Positions 20,595-27,766 of a DNA stretch of 64,000 nt are shown one piece after another. The notes beneath the pieces are model-generated. The model was not told the origin of the DNA, made no database searches, and worked only from the letters and a program-made list of their open reading frames with translations. This DNA is from Escherichia phage MX01: the sequence record NC_031934.1, one strand, 5' to 3'. The first letter of the stretch is position 1; every line of letters begins with the position of its first letter. The translations under genes were made by a program, and so were the position numbers.

Positions 20595-20777
20595 TTAGGC
20601 TTTCAATTCTTCTAAATAATCAACCAAAGCCTGTTTTGATTTAGCCAAATCTCGTTTACACCGTTCTATTCCGGAATATGAATAACCTTCACACATCTCA
20701 ACCGCAAGGTCGTTAGAATCTCTTTCAATTTCAATAGCCAATTTAAGAATTTTTGCACACTGTTCAGTAGTTAACAT
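20595..20777 (-). CDS. hypothetical protein
   Basis: 60-aa ORF. Confidence 0.3.
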   Translation of the reverse strand: MLTTEQCAKILKLAIEIERDSNDLAVEMCEGYSYSGIERCKRDLAKSKQALVDYLEELKA

Positions 20778-20781
20778 AATA

Positions 20782-21018
20782 TCACCAGTATTTGTTGATG
20801 GTAGAAATTAATTCTTGGGCCTGGGTGGTTTTCAGTTTACACCCACAGCCCTTTAATGTGTCTTTAAGGAGCCACGGTTCCTTGAGCTCGTCCTTTTCTA
20901 GACGAATTCTGTATCCTCGATAATCAGCGAAGATACTTCGGTCGTCGAATATCTTAATCTCAAGGATACGGTCATTTATTTCATATTCTAATGAAACCGT
21001 AGTACTTGTAAGTTTCAT
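20782..21018 (-). CDS. hypothetical protein
   Basis: 78-aa ORF with early promoter upstream. Confidence 0.4.
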   Translation of the reverse strand: MKLTSTTVSLEYEINDRILEIKIFDDRSIFADYRGYRIRLEKDELKEPWLLKDTLKGCGCKLKTTQAQELISTINKYW

Positions 21019-21871: not shown

Positions 21872-22150
21872 TTATAGCTTTTTAAGCTTACGACAATAAG
21901 AATAGAACACGTCGTTAAAATTATATTCAACCCAATTCCTCTGTATAGGCGAGGTAATGGAAAGCATATAATGCGCTTTAATTAAATCCATCCCATTTTT
22001 ATTAGGACACTCTTTATTATTAGCATTATACGTCGCTGCTACAACCTCTATCTCTCTTTTGTAAGCCACATCATCCATGATAGGCGAAAGAACAATATAA
22101 GAAATAGCCACAGCGAACGCTAGAATTAAAATCTTTGAATTTAGGTCCAT
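21872..22150 (-). CDS. hypothetical protein with N-terminal signal/anchor
   Basis: 92-aa ORF. Confidence 0.35.
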   Translation of the reverse strand: MDLNSKILILAFAVAISYIVLSPIMDDVAYKREIEVVAATYNANNKECPNKNGMDLIKAHYMLSITSPIQRNWVEYNFNDVFYSYCRKLKKL

Positions 22151-22157
22151 AGCACCC

Positions 22158-22730
22158 TCAACTCGTTATTTCTATCCAGTGCTTCCTGCACAATGATACG
22201 TAAGAATCGTTGCCACCTATAGAAACTTGGGCTCCGTCCTTAATTGCGATACCATCTTGGACCCTAGCGGTCATAGTAGCTTTACGGCCACAATGGCACA
22301 CACCTTTGTACTCAACGAGTTTATCTGCTGTAGCGAGTAATTCAGCAGAGCCAGGAAACAGTTTACCCTGAAAATCAGTTCTTAGCCCATAGCACATAAC
22401 TGGAACATTATAATTGTCTACTATCTTTGCCAGTTGTTTTATCTGTGCAGGTTCTAAGAATTGCGCTTCATCCACAAACACACAGTGGATATCTTTTTGA
22501 GATTCAGCCCAACGATAGAACTCGTATAGGTCCATATCCGGAGTCACTGCATTAGCCTCTTGGCTAATCCCTATACGAGATGAAATGCTATGGCTTGATT
22601 CTCTATTGTCTATCACAGGCTTTAAAAGGAGTACGCCCATACCGCGTTCTTTGTAGTTATGAGCAGCCGTTAGCAATGAAGCAGTCTTCCCGGAATTCAT
22701 TGCCGCATAGTGAAAATAAAGTTGAGCCAT
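22158..22730 (-). CDS. tk: thymidine kinase
   Basis: 190 aa; Walker A AAMNSGKTASLL, VFVDEAQF, CHCGRKA zinc motif. Confidence 0.9.
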   Translation of the reverse strand: MAQLYFHYAAMNSGKTASLLTAAHNYKERGMGVLLLKPVIDNRESSHSISSRIGISQEANAVTPDMDLYEFYRWAESQKDIHCVFVDEAQFLEPAQIKQLAKIVDNYNVPVMCYGLRTDFQGKLFPGSAELLATADKLVEYKGVCHCGRKATMTARVQDGIAIKDGAQVSIGGNDSYVSLCRKHWIEITS

Positions 22731-22738
22731 ATTAAACC

Positions 22739-22924
22739 TTAAGCAATTAAGCTTTCTAAATAGTTATCTAAAGCATTATCAGCCTCAGTTAAGACCTTTA
22801 CCAATTCATAATATGTATCTGCATCGCCATATTCAGAATTAACTTCAAAACTGAGCTCTCTTTCGGCCTCCACAATATCACCGACTAAAGAGATAATTTT
22901 AAATTTCTGGTCATGAGTAATCAT
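22739..22924 (-). CDS. hypothetical small acidic protein
   Basis: 61-aa ORF. Confidence 0.35.
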   Translation of the reverse strand: MITHDQKFKIISLVGDIVEAERELSFEVNSEYGDADTYYELVKVLTEADNALDNYLESLIA

Positions 22925-22930
22925 ACTACC

Positions 22931-23125
22931 TCAGAGTGTATTTACATAAGCAATTAATTCATTTTCTTTTTTAGAAAACTCGTCTTCTTCGTCGCCGAGC
23001 CAGTCCCAGTCTAGAGAGTTATCAAATTCACATTCAGTATTCGCATCCAAAAGCTCATGGATAAGCTCAAACAATTTATCTTTCTGTTCTTTACTCAGAC
23101 TCATAACCATTGTACCTTTAAGCAA
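22931..23125 (-). CDS. hypothetical small acidic protein
   Basis: 64-aa ORF. Confidence 0.35.
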   Translation of the reverse strand: MLKGTMVMSLSKEQKDKLFELIHELLDANTECEFDNSLDWDWLGDEEDEFSKKENELIAYVNTL

Positions 23126-23313
23126 TATTCTTCTACGTGCTGTTTACGTTTATTTTTATCTATAAAAGTATATTCAACATATTCGCCAATATACCATTTA
23201 TCAGTGTTGTGTTGACTTTTTATAGGGCATTTAGTTACTCGGGTTTCGGCCCAGTGTCGAATAATTTCCGCTTTGTTTTTAGGGTCAAACGGATGTGGGT
23301 AATGGGCTTTCAT
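23101..23313 (-). CDS. hypothetical protein
   Basis: 70-aa ORF. Confidence 0.35.
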   Translation of the reverse strand: MKAHYPHPFDPKNKAEIIRHWAETRVTKCPIKSQHNTDKWYIGEYVEYTFIDKNKRKQHVEEYCLKVQWL

Positions 23314-23752
23314 AATCTACCACCACTAAATTAATATCAGGAGTAAACAAATTAATCAATTGGTAAACCTTGTCCCAATCACCACCAGCAATACCACAAC
23401 CGATGCGAGGAATATAAATTCTGGGTTTAAACAAAAGACCCTTTGCGGTACGGTTTAATTCTATCATACAGTTTACTAAAGCACCGTAATCAAGATTAGG
23501 GCCCGGTTCGTATTGGGTGTATAAATTATAGCAAATTTGGCCATTATTACCTGTGGCTTGAGTAAACGTGCCAAGTTTTTCCAAATTGCCTAAATAAGTG
23601 GTTTTATCGATAGCGAGAATAGGCGGATAAGCCTTGGCCAATTGTCCGGCTACACCTGAACCCATTGTGTGGAAACAGTTGCACCCGTGTGCCACATTAT
23701 TACCTTGAAGAAACAGGGCGACAATATCGCCCTTAATATAATCAATAATCAT
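23285..23752 (-). CDS. macro-domain protein (putative ADP-ribose binding/hydrolase)
   Basis: 155 aa; GDIVALFLQGNNVAHGCNCFHTMGSGVAGQLAKAYP and IPRIGCGIAGGDW resemble macro-domain glycine-rich loops. Confidence 0.5.
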   Translation of the reverse strand: MIIDYIKGDIVALFLQGNNVAHGCNCFHTMGSGVAGQLAKAYPPILAIDKTTYLGNLEKLGTFTQATGNNGQICYNLYTQYEPGPNLDYGALVNCMIELNRTAKGLLFKPRIYIPRIGCGIAGGDWDKVYQLINLFTPDINLVVVDYESPLPTSV

Positions 23753-24105
23753 TTAGAGTTTAATCCTCGGTTGTATGAGTCAACGAGTCTGTCTACCATA
23801 GACGCGCACATTTCTTTGTACTTTTTATCAGATGGAATACATTCAGTAACGTTTAGACGTTGCTCGTATCTTTTAGAAAGAGTTTTCTCTTTCATTCGGC
23901 GATGCTCTACGTCATTCTGCCCATCTTTAAAAGCAGCTGTGATTTTTGAACTGAATTCGATAACGCATTCAGTATTACTTGGATGACAATAATCTTTTGC
24001 TGTACGGGTAGCATACTCTACAATTGAATTATTGCTATCATCAACTTGTGACGCTAATACTCCCGGAGCGATCAACATAAGCGCTATAGTCATCTGCTTA
24101 ATCAT
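23749..24105 (-). CDS. hypothetical secreted protein
   Basis: 118 aa with N-terminal signal peptide. Confidence 0.4.
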   Translation of the reverse strand: MIKQMTIALMLIAPGVLASQVDDSNNSIVEYATRTAKDYCHPSNTECVIEFSSKITAAFKDGQNDVEHRRMKEKTLSKRYEQRLNVTECIPSDKKYKEMCASMVDRLVDSYNRGLNSK

Positions 24106-24645
24106 TTAATATACCGCCTCAAACATCTTTTTAGATTTTAGGTAATTGGCCTTTTCTAGAACTTCAGAAGCATATTTACTGCCTGCTTTGACGTTCCAGC
24201 CCGCATTATAAGAAGCAATCGCTTTTCTCAGGTCACCTTTGTGAACATCAATCCAATAAGACAGCTCAATGTAGGCCCAAGAGGCACTGTTCTGTCGTTT
24301 TTGGACCATACGAATTATTTCTTTATCAGACATCTTCCAACCTACCTGTTGAACACGACTTCTTAACGTAGGCAAGTAATTTTGGAACATGCCATAAGCA
24401 TGGTGCTTATCTTTATTTAAACCTTGATTAATTCCGGCGGATGATTCCTGCCATAGTAATCCTGCCATGATATATCCTAATCCTTTTTGATTAGGGTTTT
24501 CTTTGAACTTTCCCGACTTTTGGTATTGTTCACCGAAAGCATATGCATAATGCAAATTGTCGAGTTGCTCACTGTTGAAAGTAGGCTCTACGCTATAGGC
24601 AGACATACTAACTGTCAATAGTAAAGTGGCTAATACTTTTTTCAT
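24106..24645 (-). CDS. secreted lytic transglycosylase-like (SLT domain) protein
   Basis: Signal peptide; WQESS...GMFQ...ASYNAGWN match SLT E-S / GLMQ / AYNAG motifs. Confidence 0.5.
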   Translation of the reverse strand: MKKVLATLLLTVSMSAYSVEPTFNSEQLDNLHYAYAFGEQYQKSGKFKENPNQKGLGYIMAGLLWQESSAGINQGLNKDKHHAYGMFQNYLPTLRSRVQQVGWKMSDKEIIRMVQKRQNSASWAYIELSYWIDVHKGDLRKAIASYNAGWNVKAGSKYASEVLEKANYLKSKKMFEAVY

Positions 24646-24657
24646 GAGACCTCATTA

Positions 24658-25116
24658 TTAAAGATAGATTACTTTCGTGCTGGTTTTACCTTCTAAACGT
24701 TTAGAGTTAACAAATGCCATACGACATTTTAACGAGTATCCTTTATCAGGATGTTTACGGTCTACAGTCATACCTAGCCATAAGGTTTTATCGGTAATTT
24801 CGAGACGCAATGGGCGATACACTTTACCAGGGACAATTTCGGATTCTACATCAGGCAGAGGTTCCTGGATTAAGAACTCATGGATTTCTTTAACATGGTT
24901 ATGGAGTTGCTTGAATAAAGCAAAAACGTATTTTTCGTCGATTTCACGTTGGATAGCACGGTCCAACAAATGATTAGAGTACTTAATAAAGAAGGCTGGG
25001 ACTCCGCTCTTAACGGCGGCTTTTTTGATGGACGTGTTCAGTTCACGGAATTCGGTTTCGAACTGACGACGTAATTTATTGCGGCGGATGAATACTTCTG
25101 AATTAATTTCTGTCAT
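24658..25116 (-). CDS. regB: RegB site-specific endoribonuclease
   Basis: 152 aa; EVFIRRNKLRR...HLLDRAIQREIDE...LWLG collinear with T4 RegB. Confidence 0.8.
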   Translation of the reverse strand: MTEINSEVFIRRNKLRRQFETEFRELNTSIKKAAVKSGVPAFFIKYSNHLLDRAIQREIDEKYVFALFKQLHNHVKEIHEFLIQEPLPDVESEIVPGKVYRPLRLEITDKTLWLGMTVDRKHPDKGYSLKCRMAFVNSKRLEGKTSTKVIYL

Positions 25117-25144
25117 TTTGTAATCTCCTGTAGTTGATAGGTCT

Positions 25145-25173
25145 ATAGTATCACGTCTACAGGAGATGTAAAC
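25145..25173 (-). promoter_or_regulatory. T4-type early promoter (GTTTAC, 17 bp, TACTAT)
   Basis: Minus-strand motif upstream of regB. Confidence 0.5.
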
Positions 25174-25177
25174 TGCT

Positions 25178-25456
25178 TTAGTACTTTTCTTCCGGTTGGA
25201 ACACAGAACGACACGCCCACATGCTTGCTTCTTTCAAGCGTTCGATTGCCGTACGAATCTGGGTGATGCGTTCATGAGCCTGGTCTAGTTCTTGTTCAGA
25301 AACCTCTTCGGTGTCTAAACCCATATAATGGTTGACATGCTCTTCTTCCAGAGCTTTAAACATTAACCCAAGACGAACTTCAGCATCTTTGATAGCATTC
25401 ACTTTACCGATTTTATCGTCGGTATGCGGTTTATAACCCTTGATATCTTCAATCAT
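25178..25456 (-). CDS. hypothetical protein
   Basis: 92-aa ORF. Confidence 0.4.
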   Translation of the reverse strand: MIEDIKGYKPHTDDKIGKVNAIKDAEVRLGLMFKALEEEHVNHYMGLDTEEVSEQELDQAHERITQIRTAIERLKEASMWACRSVFQPEEKY

Positions 25457-25671
25457 TTCACTTCCTCATCAGATGCAATATCATATTCAACTAAATGAAT
25501 CCCATCATATCCACCACGAACAGAGATATATGTGCTAGGATAAACGGTTTCTTTACCATTCCATTGGCCGCCGTCCCAGACTTCCAGAAAGTCTTGTTCG
25601 CCCTGTTCATGGAACCAATCAACAAACATCTTCAGAGCTTCATCAGAACCTTCAATAGTCAATTTAGACAT
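25453..25671 (-). CDS. hypothetical protein
   Basis: 72-aa ORF. Confidence 0.35.
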   Translation of the reverse strand: MSKLTIEGSDEALKMFVDWFHEQGEQDFLEVWDGGQWNGKETVYPSTYISVRGGYDGIHLVEYDIASDEEVK

Positions 25672-26008
25672 ATTTTTTCCAGCCAGAAATCATATGAATC
25701 TCTTGGTTATAAGTTAAGAGACTGCGAGTAATAATACCCTTACAAGGCCCTGAGATGAACTCGAGAGTGAAGTAAGGAACCTGTTTCATTAATCGGATAC
25801 TAGGAGCATGACATCTAAAACGAGAGCCCTTAAAGGGCCCTGTCATGAATACATATTCCAATGGGTAGAAATAAGCATATTCGAAATTTGCAGTAAGGTC
25901 CTCTCTTCGAACCTTACGTGAGAAATAACAGAACTCAAAAAGTTCTTCATCAGTCATCATTGCATTCCTATCACAAAGAACAGAGGCAAAGGCTTGTCGC
26001 CTTGGCAC
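25664..26008 (-). CDS. hypothetical protein
   Basis: 114-aa ORF. Confidence 0.35.
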   Translation of the reverse strand: MPRRQAFASVLCDRNAMMTDEELFEFCYFSRKVRREDLTANFEYAYFYPLEYVFMTGPFKGSRFRCHAPSIRLMKQVPYFTLEFISGPCKGIITRSLLTYNQEIHMISGWKKYV

Positions 26009-26484
26009 ATAAATTTATTAATCATTATCTGGTAAGCTTCGTAGAACTTATCCATCGCTGGAAGGCGCATTGGCTCTTCGATAATAATCAATAATCGAGT
26101 AACAGATAGTCCACGATACTTATGGAAATTGTCTTCATCAAGGAAACTGCGCACAGTATCATAGACAACAAAACCAGGACCTTCGACTTGGAGATGTGGG
26201 TGTGCCTTAGAAACCTGTTTTATTACATTACAAATTTCTCGCGAGCGATGCGAAGAACTCGACATAACAATCACATCATTACCCTTGGAAACCCAATCAG
26301 CGGCGAACTGAGCAAGGGCACTTGTTTTACCTGTTTGGCGTCCGCCATCAAGTCGAAGAGTACCAAACTCTTGCATTCTTGAAGCAGGTTCATACCATGT
26401 GTATTGGTCTGAGTCTAAACGTTCAATGGCGCGTTCAGCGAAGGCGTGCATTAAGGTTAGATAAATGGGAGTTAAAAATTTCAT
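25957..26484 (-). CDS. hypothetical P-loop NTPase-like protein
   Basis: 175 aa; GGRQTGKTS Walker A-like, LLIIIEEP Walker B-like. Confidence 0.4.
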   Translation of the reverse strand: MKFLTPIYLTLMHAFAERAIERLDSDQYTWYEPASRMQEFGTLRLDGGRQTGKTSALAQFAADWVSKGNDVIVMSSSSHRSREICNVIKQVSKAHPHLQVEGPGFVVYDTVRSFLDEDNFHKYRGLSVTRLLIIIEEPMRLPAMDKFYEAYQIMINKFMCQGDKPLPLFFVIGMQ

Positions 26485-26644
26485 AGTAGTCTCTTAGTGG
26501 TGGGGCCGTTCCTTGGCACATAATTCGTCCATGTATCCGTATGTAAACCCTTTACCGCACTTGGGCTCGACCTTATTACAGGTAGGGAAAGGTCCATCAC
26601 TCAGAGGACGCGACGTTCATGAGGAGAGGGCCGGCTTGCCTTTA

Positions 26645-26944
26645 TTAGAAAGAACCAGAACCTCTAATTGTGTTCTGGCGACCTTTATTTTCTAATTCAT
26701 AGTCGTCGATTTCGTAGGCTTGTGCTACACCAAAAGCCTTTTTAACTTTAGCTAAAGAGCCTTTAGACGTAACAATATTAAAAGTATTACCTTTGGTAAA
26801 ATCAACCAAATCCACTTGTACACCCTGTTTACCGAGGCTTGCTACAATAGCATCAACATATTCCTGGTCTAAATTGCCTTGAACTCCAATTTGAAATACT
26901 TTAGGAGCTTTGGCTTCTGTAATAAATTCTTGGTAAGTTTTCAT
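26645..26944 (-). CDS. internal-protein-like capsid protein with N-terminal capsid targeting sequence
   Basis: Starts MKTYQEFITEA; paralog of ORF 39388..39696. Confidence 0.55.
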   Translation of the reverse strand: MKTYQEFITEAKAPKVFQIGVQGNLDQEYVDAIVASLGKQGVQVDLVDFTKGNTFNIVTSKGSLAKVKKAFGVAQAYEIDDYELENKGRQNTIRGSGSF

Positions 26945-26986
26945 ATTATTCCTTAAGTTGATAGAAGTATTCTATCACGGATTTAA

Positions 26987-27403
26987 TTAAGCGTAAATCG
27001 CCTTACCATAATGTTTGTACCAGGTAGGGCGCTGTGCAATTTTTTCGTCCAAACGGGCCTGTGAAATGGCGATAGAAGCTTCGTGAGGAACATAGTCACC
27101 ACGGAATTCCTGAGGAATATCACTAATGTCCCGGACCGTAGTGTCCTTGATATTAAAACCACGTTTTAAACATTCGGCTATAAGCTCGATTTGACGTTTA
27201 CGTAAAAATTCAAGCTTATCGTAAAAGAATGTAACATGACCTGTACCAAGGATAAAAGTAGGACTGATTTTGAAATCACGGACACGTTTACCATTAGCAA
27301 CATGCTTACGAACTGCACCGAAAACACGTGGTAATTCACGGTACTCAGCCATTAAGTGTTGGTCAGCCAATTCAGATACTAAGGTAAGGTTGATACGAGT
27401 CAT
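26987..27403 (-). CDS. denV: endonuclease V (pyrimidine-dimer DNA glycosylase) DenV
   Basis: 138 aa; [29 protein letters not shown]... very close to T4 DenV as recalled. Confidence 0.9.
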
Positions 27404-27432
27404 TTTAGTGTTCTCCGTGTTTGTATGAGAAC

Positions 27433-27461
27433 ACTATATCACAGCTGTTGTAAAAGTAAAC
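27433..27461 (-). promoter_or_regulatory. T4-type early promoter (GTTTAC, 17 bp, TATAGT)
   Basis: Minus-strand motif upstream of denV. Confidence 0.5.
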
Positions 27462-27463
27462 TG

Positions 27464-27766
27464 TTATTTAGCTTTAATTGCTTTAGCTGCTTCGGTAGCC
27501 GCTTGCTGAAGGTCATCCATAGACATACCGAACTTAGAAGCAAAGTTATCAATTTTCTTTTCGACAGAATTCAAAGGCTTGGCCTGTTTACCTTCATTAG
27601 CGCCAGGGAGAGCGAGAATACGCTCTTTGTCAATATAAAGGCTTACAAGTTTCTTACGGTCTTTATCTGGCAAATCATGAAATGAATGGGCCTTTTTATT
27701 TACGGCGGCTTCTAATTTACCCGCACTTACTCGCGCTTCGGTGATAAATTCTTGATAGGTTTTCAT
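27464..27766 (-). CDS. ipII: internal protein II-like (CTS-bearing)
   Basis: 100 aa; MKTYQEFITEA start; position between e and denV. Confidence 0.6.
   Translation of the reverse strand: MKTYQEFITEARVSAGKLEAAVNKKAHSFHDLPDKDRKKLVSLYIDKERILALPGANEGKQAKPLNSVEKKIDNFASKFGMSMDDLQQAATEAAKAIKAK

What the first reader, a model, noticed from the sequence alone, without database searches (positions are those of the whole stretch)
23285..23752. Macro-domain protein in the tk-regB interval
The 155-aa ORF has glycine-rich loops like macro-domain ADP-ribose binding sites (…NNVAHG…GSGVAG… and IPRIGCGIAGG). T4-like phages ADP-ribosylate host proteins, and hosts use ADP-ribosylation and NAD-derived signals in defence, so a phage macro domain could reverse ADP-ribosylation or degrade ADP-ribose-derived signals. 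I do not recall a macro domain in T4 itself.
Basis: inference. Interest (0 to 1): 0.5.

Follow-up and report, generated by a model that had tools for sequence, protein, structure and literature searches.

The report
Phage macrodomain Tk.4/AdfM, already known
The ORF is a genuine macro-domain protein, but it is the ordinary ortholog of phage T4 gene tk.4 (recently renamed adfM), which T4 needs to escape the bacterial DarTG2 defence that ADP-ribosylates phage DNA, so the finding is correct but not new.

Summary

This is the syntenic ortholog (53% identity, between vs and tk.3) of T4 tk.4, annotated 'phosphatase; contains A1pp phosphatase motif'. A 2025 preprint (HIDEN-SEQ) found tk.4 to be the only T4 gene required on a DarTG2 host and renamed it adfM.

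My refinement: the family has an invariant Gln80 where DarG and TARG1 have their catalytic Lys. It shares Asn25, Gly120 and the PRIGCGxAGG loop with SCO6735/BT1257. SCO6735 cleaves thymidine-linked ADP-ribose from DNA and needs that Gln. The PhiKZ protein also called AdfM is a different, Lys-type lineage.

Most likely function: removal of DarT2-installed ADP-ribose from phage DNA. This rests on T4 genetics and on active-site inference, with no biochemistry for this family.

Side observation: a conserved 8-bp hairpin inside codons 7-13, with compensatory changes and rare codons. Its function is unknown.

Novelty: already known. Interest: low.

The parts
23285..23752 (-). tk.4 / adfM coding sequence: 155-aa single-domain macrodomain protein
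23749..23752 (-). ATGA overlap: the vs stop codon (TGA) overlaps the tk.4 start codon (ATG), an arrangement typical of translational coupling
   Evidence: Read directly from the sequence. The same 4-nt overlap is annotated in C6, RB32 and T4. Coupling itself is inferred.
23764..23768 (-). GAGGA Shine-Dalgarno-like motif 11 nt upstream of the ATG, inside the end of vs
   Evidence: Read from the sequence. Conserved as cGAGGAtt in T4, C6, Maryam and L017. Function is inferred.
23675..23689 (-). HGCNC motif (His22-Cys26). Asn25 is the equivalent of SCO6735 Asn27, and Gly23 the equivalent of Val25, whose backbone is proposed to hold the catalytic water
   Evidence: Invariant in 119/119 ungapped homologs. 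Asn25 is 139/139 in divergent representatives. SCO6735 N27S is almost inactive (PMC9411070).
23645..23662 (-). GSGVAG loop (Gly31-Gly36), the first ADP-ribose/phosphate-contacting glycine loop of the macro fold
   Evidence: Gly33 and Ala35 invariant 121/121. Aligns with the GxG loop of BT1257, TARG1 and DarG.
23513..23527 (-). N-L-Y-T-Q motif (Asn76-Gln80). Gln80 occupies the position of the catalytic Lys of TARG1 (K84) and DarG (K80), and of Gln85 of SCO6735
   Evidence: Profile and hhalign alignments. Gln80 invariant in 120/120 and 139/139 sequences. SCO6735 Q85A and Q85E are inactive.
23375..23410 (-). PRIGCGIAGGDW phosphate-binding loop (Pro115-Trp126). Gly120 is the equivalent of SCO6735 Gly128. 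Ala122 sits where TARG1 has the catalytic Asp125
   Evidence: Same pattern as BT1257 and SCO6735 PRIGCGLAGG. Gly118 and Gly120 invariant. SCO6735 G128E loses most activity.
23715..23733 (-). Conserved 8-bp hairpin (AGGGCGAT-ATT-GTCGCCCT) inside codons 7-13, followed by a T-rich Leu-Phe stretch. Function unknown
   Evidence: Flagged by the terminator-like scan. Identical in T4 and RB32 despite 53% protein identity. Present in five genera with compensatory changes. Uses rare codons, joint probability 0.006. Holds the only 4-fold codon columns with no synonymous variation. 98.6% of cells paired against at most 66% in slid registers. It is the only consensus structure in -45..+66.

Best explanation
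The ORF is the Dhakavirus ortholog of T4 tk.4 (adfM), a free-standing macrodomain enzyme made early in infection. When the host DarTG2 system releases DarT2, which puts ADP-ribose on thymidines in single-stranded TNTC motifs of phage DNA and blocks replication, this protein most likely binds the ADP-ribose in its macro cleft and hydrolyses the thymine-ribose bond, restoring the DNA. Its active site is of the lysine-independent, SCO6735/BT1257 type, not the DarG type. Gln80 would be held by Asn25 and position the distal ribose, while the glycine loops (GSGVAG and PRIGCGIAGG) grip the diphosphate. Shown here: the ORF, the fold, the class, the active-site residues and the orthology. Shown by others for the T4 ortholog: the gene is required on DarTG2 hosts. 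Inferred: the enzymatic reaction itself, and that the 53%-identical Dhakavirus protein does the same job.
For: Orthology: 53% identity over all 155 residues, E 2e-62. Same position between vs and tk.3 in the window, C6, RB32 and T4. Only homolog in the window.

Active site: Gln80 aligns with BT1257 Gln, DarG Lys80 and TARG1 Lys84. His22, Asn25, Gln80, Gly118 and Gly120 are invariant in 120 close and 139 divergent homologs.

Precedent: SCO6735 (Gln85 type) cleaves DarT-made thymidine-ADPr from DNA faster than DarG and TARG1. Q85A/E abolish activity, N27S almost abolishes it and G128E reduces it substantially. It rescues DarT toxicity in vivo (PMC9411070; confirmed with synthetic substrates in PMC12879935).

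Genetics in T4: tk.4 was the single significant transposon hit on a DarTG2 host, and a clean knockout sensitised T4 (bioRxiv 10.1101/2025.11.20.689424). This fits the earlier observation that T4 lacking adfA and adfN stays resistant to DarTG2 (PMC11825919).
Against: No biochemistry exists for any Tk.4-family protein. The preprint infers hydrolysis from fold similarity only.

The experimentally tested T4 protein has an atypical phosphate loop (PRIGAGIGKGNW) compared with the window protein and the family consensus (PRIGCGIAGGDW), so transfer of function is plausible but unproven.

Two SCO6735 features that help DNA binding are missing here. Lys34 is Ser32, and the 'mobile loop' with Lys89 is about 6 residues shorter.

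The family is very large and widespread (1,275 representative clusters at E<=1e-30; 2,735 phage records). That may mean a broader or different primary substrate than DarT2 products.
Confidence: 0.75

Rival explanations
1. It is a small-molecule ADP-ribose-derivative enzyme, as the long-standing 'phosphatase' annotation implies. That would be a Poa1p-like ADP-ribose-1''-phosphate phosphatase or an O-acetyl-ADP-ribose deacetylase, clearing by-products of RNA repair or sirtuin reactions.
Against: Poa1p has Ser where this family has its invariant Gln80, and a different phosphate loop (PQINSGIFGVPW). The annotation is homology-only. The T4 knockout phenotype is specific to DarTG2, a DNA-modifying system. 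T4 RNA repair (Pnkp/Rnl1; textbook knowledge, not tested here) does not generate ADP-ribose-1''-phosphate.
Confidence: 0.08
2. It protects mainly by binding and blocking DarT2, acting as an antitoxin-like inhibitor, and does not depend on hydrolysing the DNA adduct.
For: Catalytically dead SCO6735 Q85A, DarG K80A and TARG1 K84A all inhibit DarT in vitro, with SCO6735 the strongest (PMC9411070). The other phage factors AdfA and AdfB act by binding DarT (PMC11825919).
Against: Strict invariance of the whole catalytic set (His22, Asn25, Gln80, Gly118, Gly120) across very divergent phages that face different DarT alleles argues for selection on catalysis. It lacks the C-terminal DarT-binding domain of DarG: 155 aa against a 338-position DarG model.
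Confidence: 0.07
3. Its main substrates are other ADP-ribosylated macromolecules. These could be uracil-ADPr on RNA or Glu/Asp-linked protein ADPr made by host toxins, or it could trim the phage's own Alt/ModA/ModB modifications.
For: SCO6735 also removes protein ADPr from PARP1 E988Q and uracil-linked ADPr from RNA (PMC13036486). The family's very wide distribution exceeds what one defence system might explain.
Against: No ADP-ribosylating host system other than DarTG2 has been linked to tk.4. Alt and Mod enzymes are arginine-specific (general knowledge), a linkage that ALC1-like macrodomains are not known to cleave. T-even phages remain sensitive to the mRNA ADP-ribosyltransferase CmdT, according to the abstract of PMC11618068, so this protein evidently does not reverse that adenine modification.
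Confidence: 0.08
4. It degrades or sequesters ADP-ribose-derived immune signals such as Thoeris gcADPR.
Against: No sequence or structural affinity beyond the generic fold. The active site matches a glycohydrolase type characterised on DNA adducts. No genetic link has been reported.
Confidence: 0.02

Closest known systems
T4 Tk.4 = AdfM (anti-DarT factor Macrodomain; T4p110, NP_049723)
   Same: Same length (155 aa), 53% identity end to end, same neighbours (vs upstream with an ATGA overlap, tk.3 downstream), same invariant HGCNC / NxYTQ / PxIGxG motifs, and the same intragenic hairpin.
   Different: The phosphate loop is PRIGCGIAGGDW here (the family consensus) and PRIGAGIGKGNW in T4. The 3' end overlaps tk.3 by 29 nt here and by 4 nt in T4. 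This protein has a short C-terminal tail of low model confidence. The DarTG2 phenotype has been shown only for T4.
SCO6735 (Streptomyces coelicolor) and BT1257 (Bacteroides thetaiotaomicron): Gln-type ALC1-like macrodomains
   Different: About 25-29% identity. The 'mobile loop' after the Gln is about 6 residues shorter here (TARG1/DarG-like length) and lacks Lys89. Lys34 is Ser32. Those are cellular proteins, not phage-encoded.
DarG antitoxin macrodomain (M. tuberculosis 5M3I, T. aquaticus 5M31/5M3E)
   Different: DarG uses catalytic Lys80, and this family has Gln. DarG has a C-terminal DarT-binding domain and sits next to darT. This protein is a single domain with no darT neighbour. The NCBIfam DarG model gives 20 bits against a cut-off of 250.
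PhiKZ gp104, also named AdfM (Cell Rep 2026, PMC13309987)
   Same: A phage-encoded single macrodomain that counters DarTG2. Shown biochemically to remove DarT2-made ADP-ribose from DNA.
   Different: A different lineage. gp104 matches Mtb DarG at E 9e-25, keeps the FPTK catalytic Lys, and is only 19% identical to the Tk.4 family. The two 'AdfM' proteins are probably independent acquisitions.
Human TARG1/OARD1 and yeast Poa1p
   Different: The TARG1 Lys84/Asp125 dyad is Gln80/Ala122 here. Poa1p has Ser at the Gln position and a different phosphate loop.

Membership tests
Macro domain superfamily (Pfam PF01661) | Sequence score above the curated gathering threshold | tested here: met
   32.6 bits against a cut-off of 22, E 8.6e-8, covering 2-117 of 118 profile positions.
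Macro domain superfamily (Pfam PF01661) | Three-layer alpha/beta/alpha macro fold with glycine-rich ADP-ribose-binding loops | tested here: met
ALC1-like macrodomain class (TARG1 / DarG / SCO6735 / Poa1p) | Closest structural and sequence neighbours belong to this class and not to the MacroD, PARG or macroH2A classes | tested here: met
Gln-type subclass (SCO6735 / BT1257) | Gln in place of the catalytic Lys, positioned by a conserved Asn | tested here: met
   Gln80 aligns with BT1257 Gln and with DarG/TARG1 Lys. Asn25 corresponds to SCO6735 Asn27. Both are invariant.
Gln-type subclass (SCO6735 / BT1257) | PRIGCGLAGG-type phosphate-binding loop with the Gly128 equivalent | tested here: met
   PRIGCGIAGG at residues 115-124, with Gly120 invariant.
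Gln-type subclass (SCO6735 / BT1257) | Extended 'mobile loop' (5 residues longer than in TARG1/DarG) carrying Lys89, plus Lys34 | tested here: not met
   The profile alignments need a 6-residue gap in this family opposite the BT1257 loop. Ser32 stands at the Lys34 position. It is therefore a short-loop variant of the Gln type.
Gln-type subclass (SCO6735 / BT1257) | Hydrolysis of thymidine-linked ADP-ribose on ssDNA | not testable with these tools
   Needs an enzyme assay. The only support is the T4 genetic phenotype.
DarG antitoxin (NCBIfam NF048014 equivalog) | Model score above the curated cut-off, with a two-domain architecture (macro plus C-terminal DarT-binding domain) | tested here: not met
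   20.2 bits against a cut-off of 250. The match covers only positions 3-138 of 338, and the protein is 155 aa. The PADLOC DarG model hits only weakly over the macro part (E 5.8e-6).
DarG antitoxin (NCBIfam NF048014 equivalog) | Catalytic Lys80 | tested here: not met
   Gln80 aligns with DarG Lys.
DarG antitoxin (NCBIfam NF048014 equivalog) | Encoded next to a darT toxin gene | tested here: not met
   The neighbours are vs and tk.3.
T4 Tk.4 / AdfM ortholog group | Full-length similarity, conserved position between vs and tk.3, and a unique hit in the genome segment | tested here: met
   53% identity and E 2e-62 over 155/155 residues. Synteny. Single hit in the window. PHROG 335 E 5e-67.
T4 Tk.4 / AdfM ortholog group | Required for plating on DarTG2-expressing hosts | not testable with these tools
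   Shown only for T4 (bioRxiv 10.1101/2025.11.20.689424).
Poa1p-type ADP-ribose-1''-phosphate phosphatase | Poa1p active-site residues (His23 and Ser30, taken from the titles of the mutant structures in the PDB) and its phosphate loop | tested here: inconclusive
   His22 matches His23, and the H-x-C-N-C motif is shared. The Ser30 position is Thr29 here and varies across the family. Poa1p has Ser opposite Gln80 and a different loop. Phosphatase activity cannot be tested here.
PhiKZ-type AdfM (gp104, DarG-like) | Close similarity to DarG macrodomains with the FPTK Lys | tested here: not met
   hhalign finds 19% identity over 113 columns. gp104 matches DarG at E 9e-25, whereas the window protein matches at E 9e-5. 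Lys versus Gln.

The most novel reading that the evidence does not exclude
The T-even Tk.4/AdfM family is a lysine-independent (Gln-type, short-loop) thymine-ADP-ribose DNA hydrolase that phages recruited separately from the Lys-type, DarG-like AdfM of chimalliviruses. That would make two convergent macrodomain answers to DarT2. In addition, its expression in several myovirus genera would be tuned by a conserved RNA hairpin embedded in codons 7-13 of the gene.
Probability: 0.4. Interest if true: 0.4.

Novelty: already known. Interest (0 to 1): 0.18.

Why it matters
It matters little as a discovery. The gene family has been annotated as an A1pp/macro 'phosphatase' in T4 for many years, macro domains occur in about 41% of myoviruses (PMC9503650), and the anti-DarTG2 role of T4 tk.4 was reported in 2025.

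The analysis adds three things:
- It extends the AdfM assignment to Dhakavirus phages, where the nearest record (phage C6) still calls the gene 'hypothetical protein'.
- It shows that the T-even AdfM has the SCO6735-type Gln active site and not the DarG-type Lys. This predicts which mutants should kill activity (Q80A, N25S, G120E). It also means the two proteins named AdfM are not the same family.
- It flags a conserved intragenic hairpin that may regulate the gene.

Tried and rejected
1. Membership in DarG proper is rejected. The NCBIfam score is far below its cut-off, there is no C-terminal domain, no Lys80 and no darT neighbour.

2. Equating this protein with PhiKZ AdfM is rejected. PhiKZ gp104 is a different, Lys-type lineage.

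3. The Poa1p-type phosphatase reading is not excluded but disfavoured by the Ser/Gln difference and the different loop.

4. The promoter scan of 22000-27500 found 15 sites against 15.1 expected in shuffles, so it supports no conclusion about transcription.

5. A plain MAFFT alignment of seven macrodomains misplaced BT1257 around the Gln because of indels. I relied instead on the HMMER and hhalign profile alignments, which agree with the published structure-based alignment.

6. The Rfam search of 23200-24200 gave only a chance-level snoRNA hit (E 0.054, below gathering), so no known RNA family covers the hairpin.

7. No larger conserved RNA structure links the hairpin to the ribosome-binding site. 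Alifold on 12 Tevenvirinae returned only the 8-bp stem.

It was rerun without that row.

Full report
**Observation.** The window holds an ATG-started ORF of 155 codons at 23285..23752 on the minus strand (sequence). The start codon overlaps the stop codon of the upstream gene in an ATGA arrangement (23749-23752). A GAGGA motif lies 11 nt upstream of the ATG. The 3' end overlaps the next ORF by 29 nt.

**Genomic setting.** A 20-kb stretch around the ORF is about 94% identical to Dhakavirus phages (Tevenvirinae) such as C6, AnYang and SHP1 (genus from the C6 record). The local order is tk, small ORFs, tk.3, this ORF, vs, vs.1, regB. That is the same order as in C6, RB32 and T4, so 'tk-regB interval' is correct.

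**Is it a macro domain?** Yes.
- Pfam Macro (PF01661) scores 32.6 bits against a gathering cut-off of 22.
- A phmmer search of the PDB finds BT1257 (E 5e-9), SCO6735, Poa1p, the M. tuberculosis DarG macrodomain (5M3I, E 9e-5) and TARG1.
- A profile of 65 homologs raises these to 1e-19 (BT1257), 7e-18 (TARG1), 3e-16 (SCO6735), 1e-14 (Poa1p) and 3e-11 (DarG).
- AlphaFold2 with that alignment gives pLDDT 94.8 and pTM 0.89, with six strands and five helices.
- The protein is therefore an ALC1-like-class macrodomain, using the class name of PMC9411070.

**Is it absent from T4?** No.
- A tblastn search finds relatives in 2,735 of 50,697 phage records.
- T4 encodes tk.4 (T4p110), annotated 'phosphatase; Tk.4; contains A1pp phosphatase motif', at the same position between vs and tk.3. 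A1pp is the old name for the macro domain.
- The window protein and T4 Tk.4 are both 155 aa and 53% identical end to end (E 2e-62).
- The window contains no other homolog.
- PHROG 335 ('phosphatase') matches at E 5e-67.
- The finding is therefore the Dhakavirus ortholog of a long-annotated T4 gene.
- The family is very large. A profile search of 1.84 billion representatives gives 1,275 clusters at E<=1e-30 and 9,724 at E<=1e-10.
- A published survey found macro domains in 41% of myoviruses (PMC9503650).

**What is known about function.**
- A November 2025 preprint (HIDEN-SEQ, bioRxiv 10.1101/2025.11.20.689424) screened a T4 transposon library on E. coli expressing DarTG2. It found tk.4 as the single significant hit.
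- A clean knockout sensitised T4 to DarTG2. The authors renamed the gene adfM (anti-DarT factor Macrodomain).
- From predicted-structure similarity to M. tuberculosis DarG, they proposed that it removes ADP-ribose from DNA.
- This explains the earlier observation that T4 lacking adfA and adfN remains fully resistant to DarTG2 (PMC11825919).
- No enzymology for Tk.4 was reported.

**Active-site type (my refinement).**
- In the profile-to-PDB alignment, the family motif N-x-Y-T-Q aligns with TARG1 Y-L-I-T-K. That puts Gln80 opposite the catalytic Lys84, and Ala122 opposite Asp125.
- hhalign places Gln80 opposite Lys80 of Mtb DarG, opposite the Gln of BT1257 and opposite a Ser of Poa1p. The Poa1p sequence was verified against 6LFQ.
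- Gln80 is invariant in 120/120 retrieved homologs and in all 139 sequences of the divergent-representative set. The same holds for Asn25, Tyr78, Gly118 and Gly120. HGCNC is nearly invariant.
- This is the signature of the SCO6735/BT1257 subclass. In SCO6735, Gln85 replaces the Lys. Q85A and Q85E abolish activity, N27S almost abolishes it and G128E reduces it substantially.
- SCO6735 cleaves DarT-made thymidine-ADP-ribose from DNA faster than DarG or TARG1, and it protects cells from DarT (PMC9411070; substrate preference confirmed in PMC12879935).
- The window equivalents are Gln80, Asn25 and Gly120. The phosphate loop PRIGCGIAGG is almost identical to PRIGCGLAGG of SCO6735 and BT1257.
- Two things differ. 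The 'mobile loop' after the Gln is about six residues shorter here, which is TARG1/DarG length. The DNA-contacting Lys34 and Lys89 of SCO6735 are not conserved, with Ser32 at the first position.
- The tested T4 protein has a deviant loop (PRIGAGIGKGNW). The window protein carries the family consensus.

**Not a DarG, and not the PhiKZ AdfM.**
- The NCBIfam DarG equivalog scores 20.2 bits against a cut-off of 250, and only over the macro part of a 338-position model. PADLOC's DarG model gives a weak hit, E 5.8e-6.
- There is no C-terminal DarT-binding domain and no darT neighbour.
- A 2026 paper independently gave the name AdfM to PhiKZ gp104, and showed biochemically that it removes DarT2-made ADP-ribose from DNA (PMC13309987).
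- gp104 matches Mtb DarG at E 9e-25, keeps the FPTK lysine, and is only 19% identical to the Tk.4 family.
- The two 'AdfM' proteins are therefore different macrodomain lineages with, presumably, different catalytic chemistry.

**Mechanism proposed.** Early in infection the protein is made, probably by translational coupling to vs. DarT2 released by the host ADP-ribosylates thymidines in single-stranded phage DNA. The macrodomain binds the ADP-ribose, with the diphosphate held between the two glycine loops and the distal ribose positioned by Gln80, which is locked in place by Asn25. It hydrolyses the N-glycosidic bond by a water-mediated, lysine-independent mechanism like the one proposed for SCO6735.
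- Shown here: fold, class, residues and orthology.
- Shown by others: the T4 phenotype and the SCO6735 chemistry.
- Inferred: that Tk.4-family proteins catalyse this reaction, and that the Dhakavirus allele does so.

Rivals (soluble ADPr-derivative phosphatase or deacetylase, toxin sequestration, RNA or protein de-ADP-ribosylation, signal degradation) are listed with their evidence. Toxin binding and broader substrate range may coexist with the main activity. Catalytically dead SCO6735 still inhibits DarT, and SCO6735 also acts on protein ADPr and on uracil-linked ADPr in RNA.

**Side observation: a conserved hairpin inside the gene.**
- The terminator-like scan flagged AGGGCGAT-ATT-GTCGCCCT followed by GTTTCTT at 23733..23715 (minus strand), covering codons 7-13 (K-G-D-I-V-A-L).
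- The 19-nt stem-loop is identical in T4 and RB32, although the proteins are only 53% identical. C6 differs only in the loop.
- Across 92 loci the full 8-bp stem is present in Dhakavirus, Tequatrovirus, Gaprivervirus, Krischvirus, Vequintavirus and several IMG/VR contigs. Two distant contigs keep 7 of 8 pairs. It is absent from Jiaodavirus, Slopekvirus, Tulanevirus, Biquartavirus, Felixounavirus and most distant homologs.
- Changes inside the stem are compensated. AAG...CTN becomes AAA...TTR (G-C to A-U, both changes synonymous). GGC...GCC becomes GGA...TCC (C-G to A-U, at the price of Ala to Ser). The closing U.G becomes U-A or C-G. The loop codon and the third base of codon 13 vary freely.
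- The stem uses GGC, GTC and GCC, which have a joint probability of 0.006 under the window's codon usage.
- Among 16 hairpin-bearing genes there are about 30 conserved four-fold-degenerate codon columns. Only Val11 (GTC 14/14) and Ala12 (GCC 15/15) show no synonymous variation.
- On a set of 18 distinct sequences chosen by amino-acid pattern, 98.6% of cells pair, against at most 66% in slid registers. Two pairs and three cells show double-sided changes, and 0 of 500 shuffles reach that cell count.
- No Rfam family matches, and no larger conserved structure surrounds the hairpin.
- I conclude that the hairpin is under selection at the nucleotide level, most likely as RNA. One mid-stem U.G wobble on the sense strand supports this, but it is a single case.
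- The number of independent events is small, and the function is unknown. Candidates are an attenuator or terminator, an mRNA stability element, or translational control.

**Verdict.** Novelty: already known. Interest is low. The modest added value is the Gln-type active-site assignment, the distinction from the PhiKZ AdfM, and the conserved intragenic hairpin.

Noticed in passing
window 23715..23733 (-), inside codons 7-13 of the ORF; also T4 L003, RB32 L002, C6 L001, L004, L005, L008, L009, L014-L019, L022, L023, L029, L030, L035, L036, L038, L088, L089: A conserved 8-bp GC-rich hairpin (AGGGCGAT-NNN-[GA]TCGCCCT) followed by a T-rich stretch. It is built from rare codons and kept by compensatory changes across at least five myovirus genera, but is absent from others. 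No Rfam family covers it and its function is unknown.
   Followed up: yes
literature versus window 23285..23752: Two different proteins carry the name AdfM. T4 Tk.4 (Gln-type, SCO6735-like; bioRxiv 10.1101/2025.11.20.689424) and PhiKZ gp104 (Lys-type, DarG-like; PMC13309987) are only 19% identical and differ at the catalytic position.
   Followed up: yes
T4 L003:4923-5390 versus window 23375..23410: The experimentally tested T4 protein has an atypical phosphate-binding loop (PRIGAGIGKGNW). The window protein carries the family consensus (PRIGCGIAGGDW), which is close to SCO6735/BT1257. At position 123, Lys occurs in only 3 of 121 homologs.
   Followed up: partly
window 23285..23313: The 3' end of the ORF overlaps the start of tk.3 by 29 nt, as annotated in C6 and Maryam. 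T4 and RB32 have a 4-nt overlap. The extra C-terminal residues have low model confidence, with a mean pLDDT of 49 for the last block.
   Followed up: partly
window 20595..20777, 22739..22924, 22931..23125 (all -): Three roughly 60-aa ORFs are weakly similar to each other (blastp E 1.5e-4 and 0.02), so they may be tk.1/tk.2-like paralogs. The window has about 180 nt more between tk and tk.3 than phage C6, which corresponds to one extra small ORF.
   Followed up: partly
window 23749..24105 (-), gene vs: The upstream, translationally overlapping gene vs (valyl-tRNA synthetase modifier) was reported in the same preprint as the most strongly depleted T4 gene in minimal medium. Two conditionally important genes are therefore adjacent.
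   Followed up: no
L001:5557-5793 (phage C6 ORF104), equivalent to window 20782..21018 (-): C6 annotates a second, 78-aa 'valyl-tRNA synthetase modifier' far from the real vs gene. This is probably an annotation error. C6 also still calls the tk.4 ortholog 'hypothetical protein'.
   Followed up: no
window 23930..24001 (-): A weak Rfam match to the eukaryotic snoRNA SNORD45 (23.9 bits against a gathering score of 42, E 0.054) inside vs. This is almost certainly chance.
   Followed up: no
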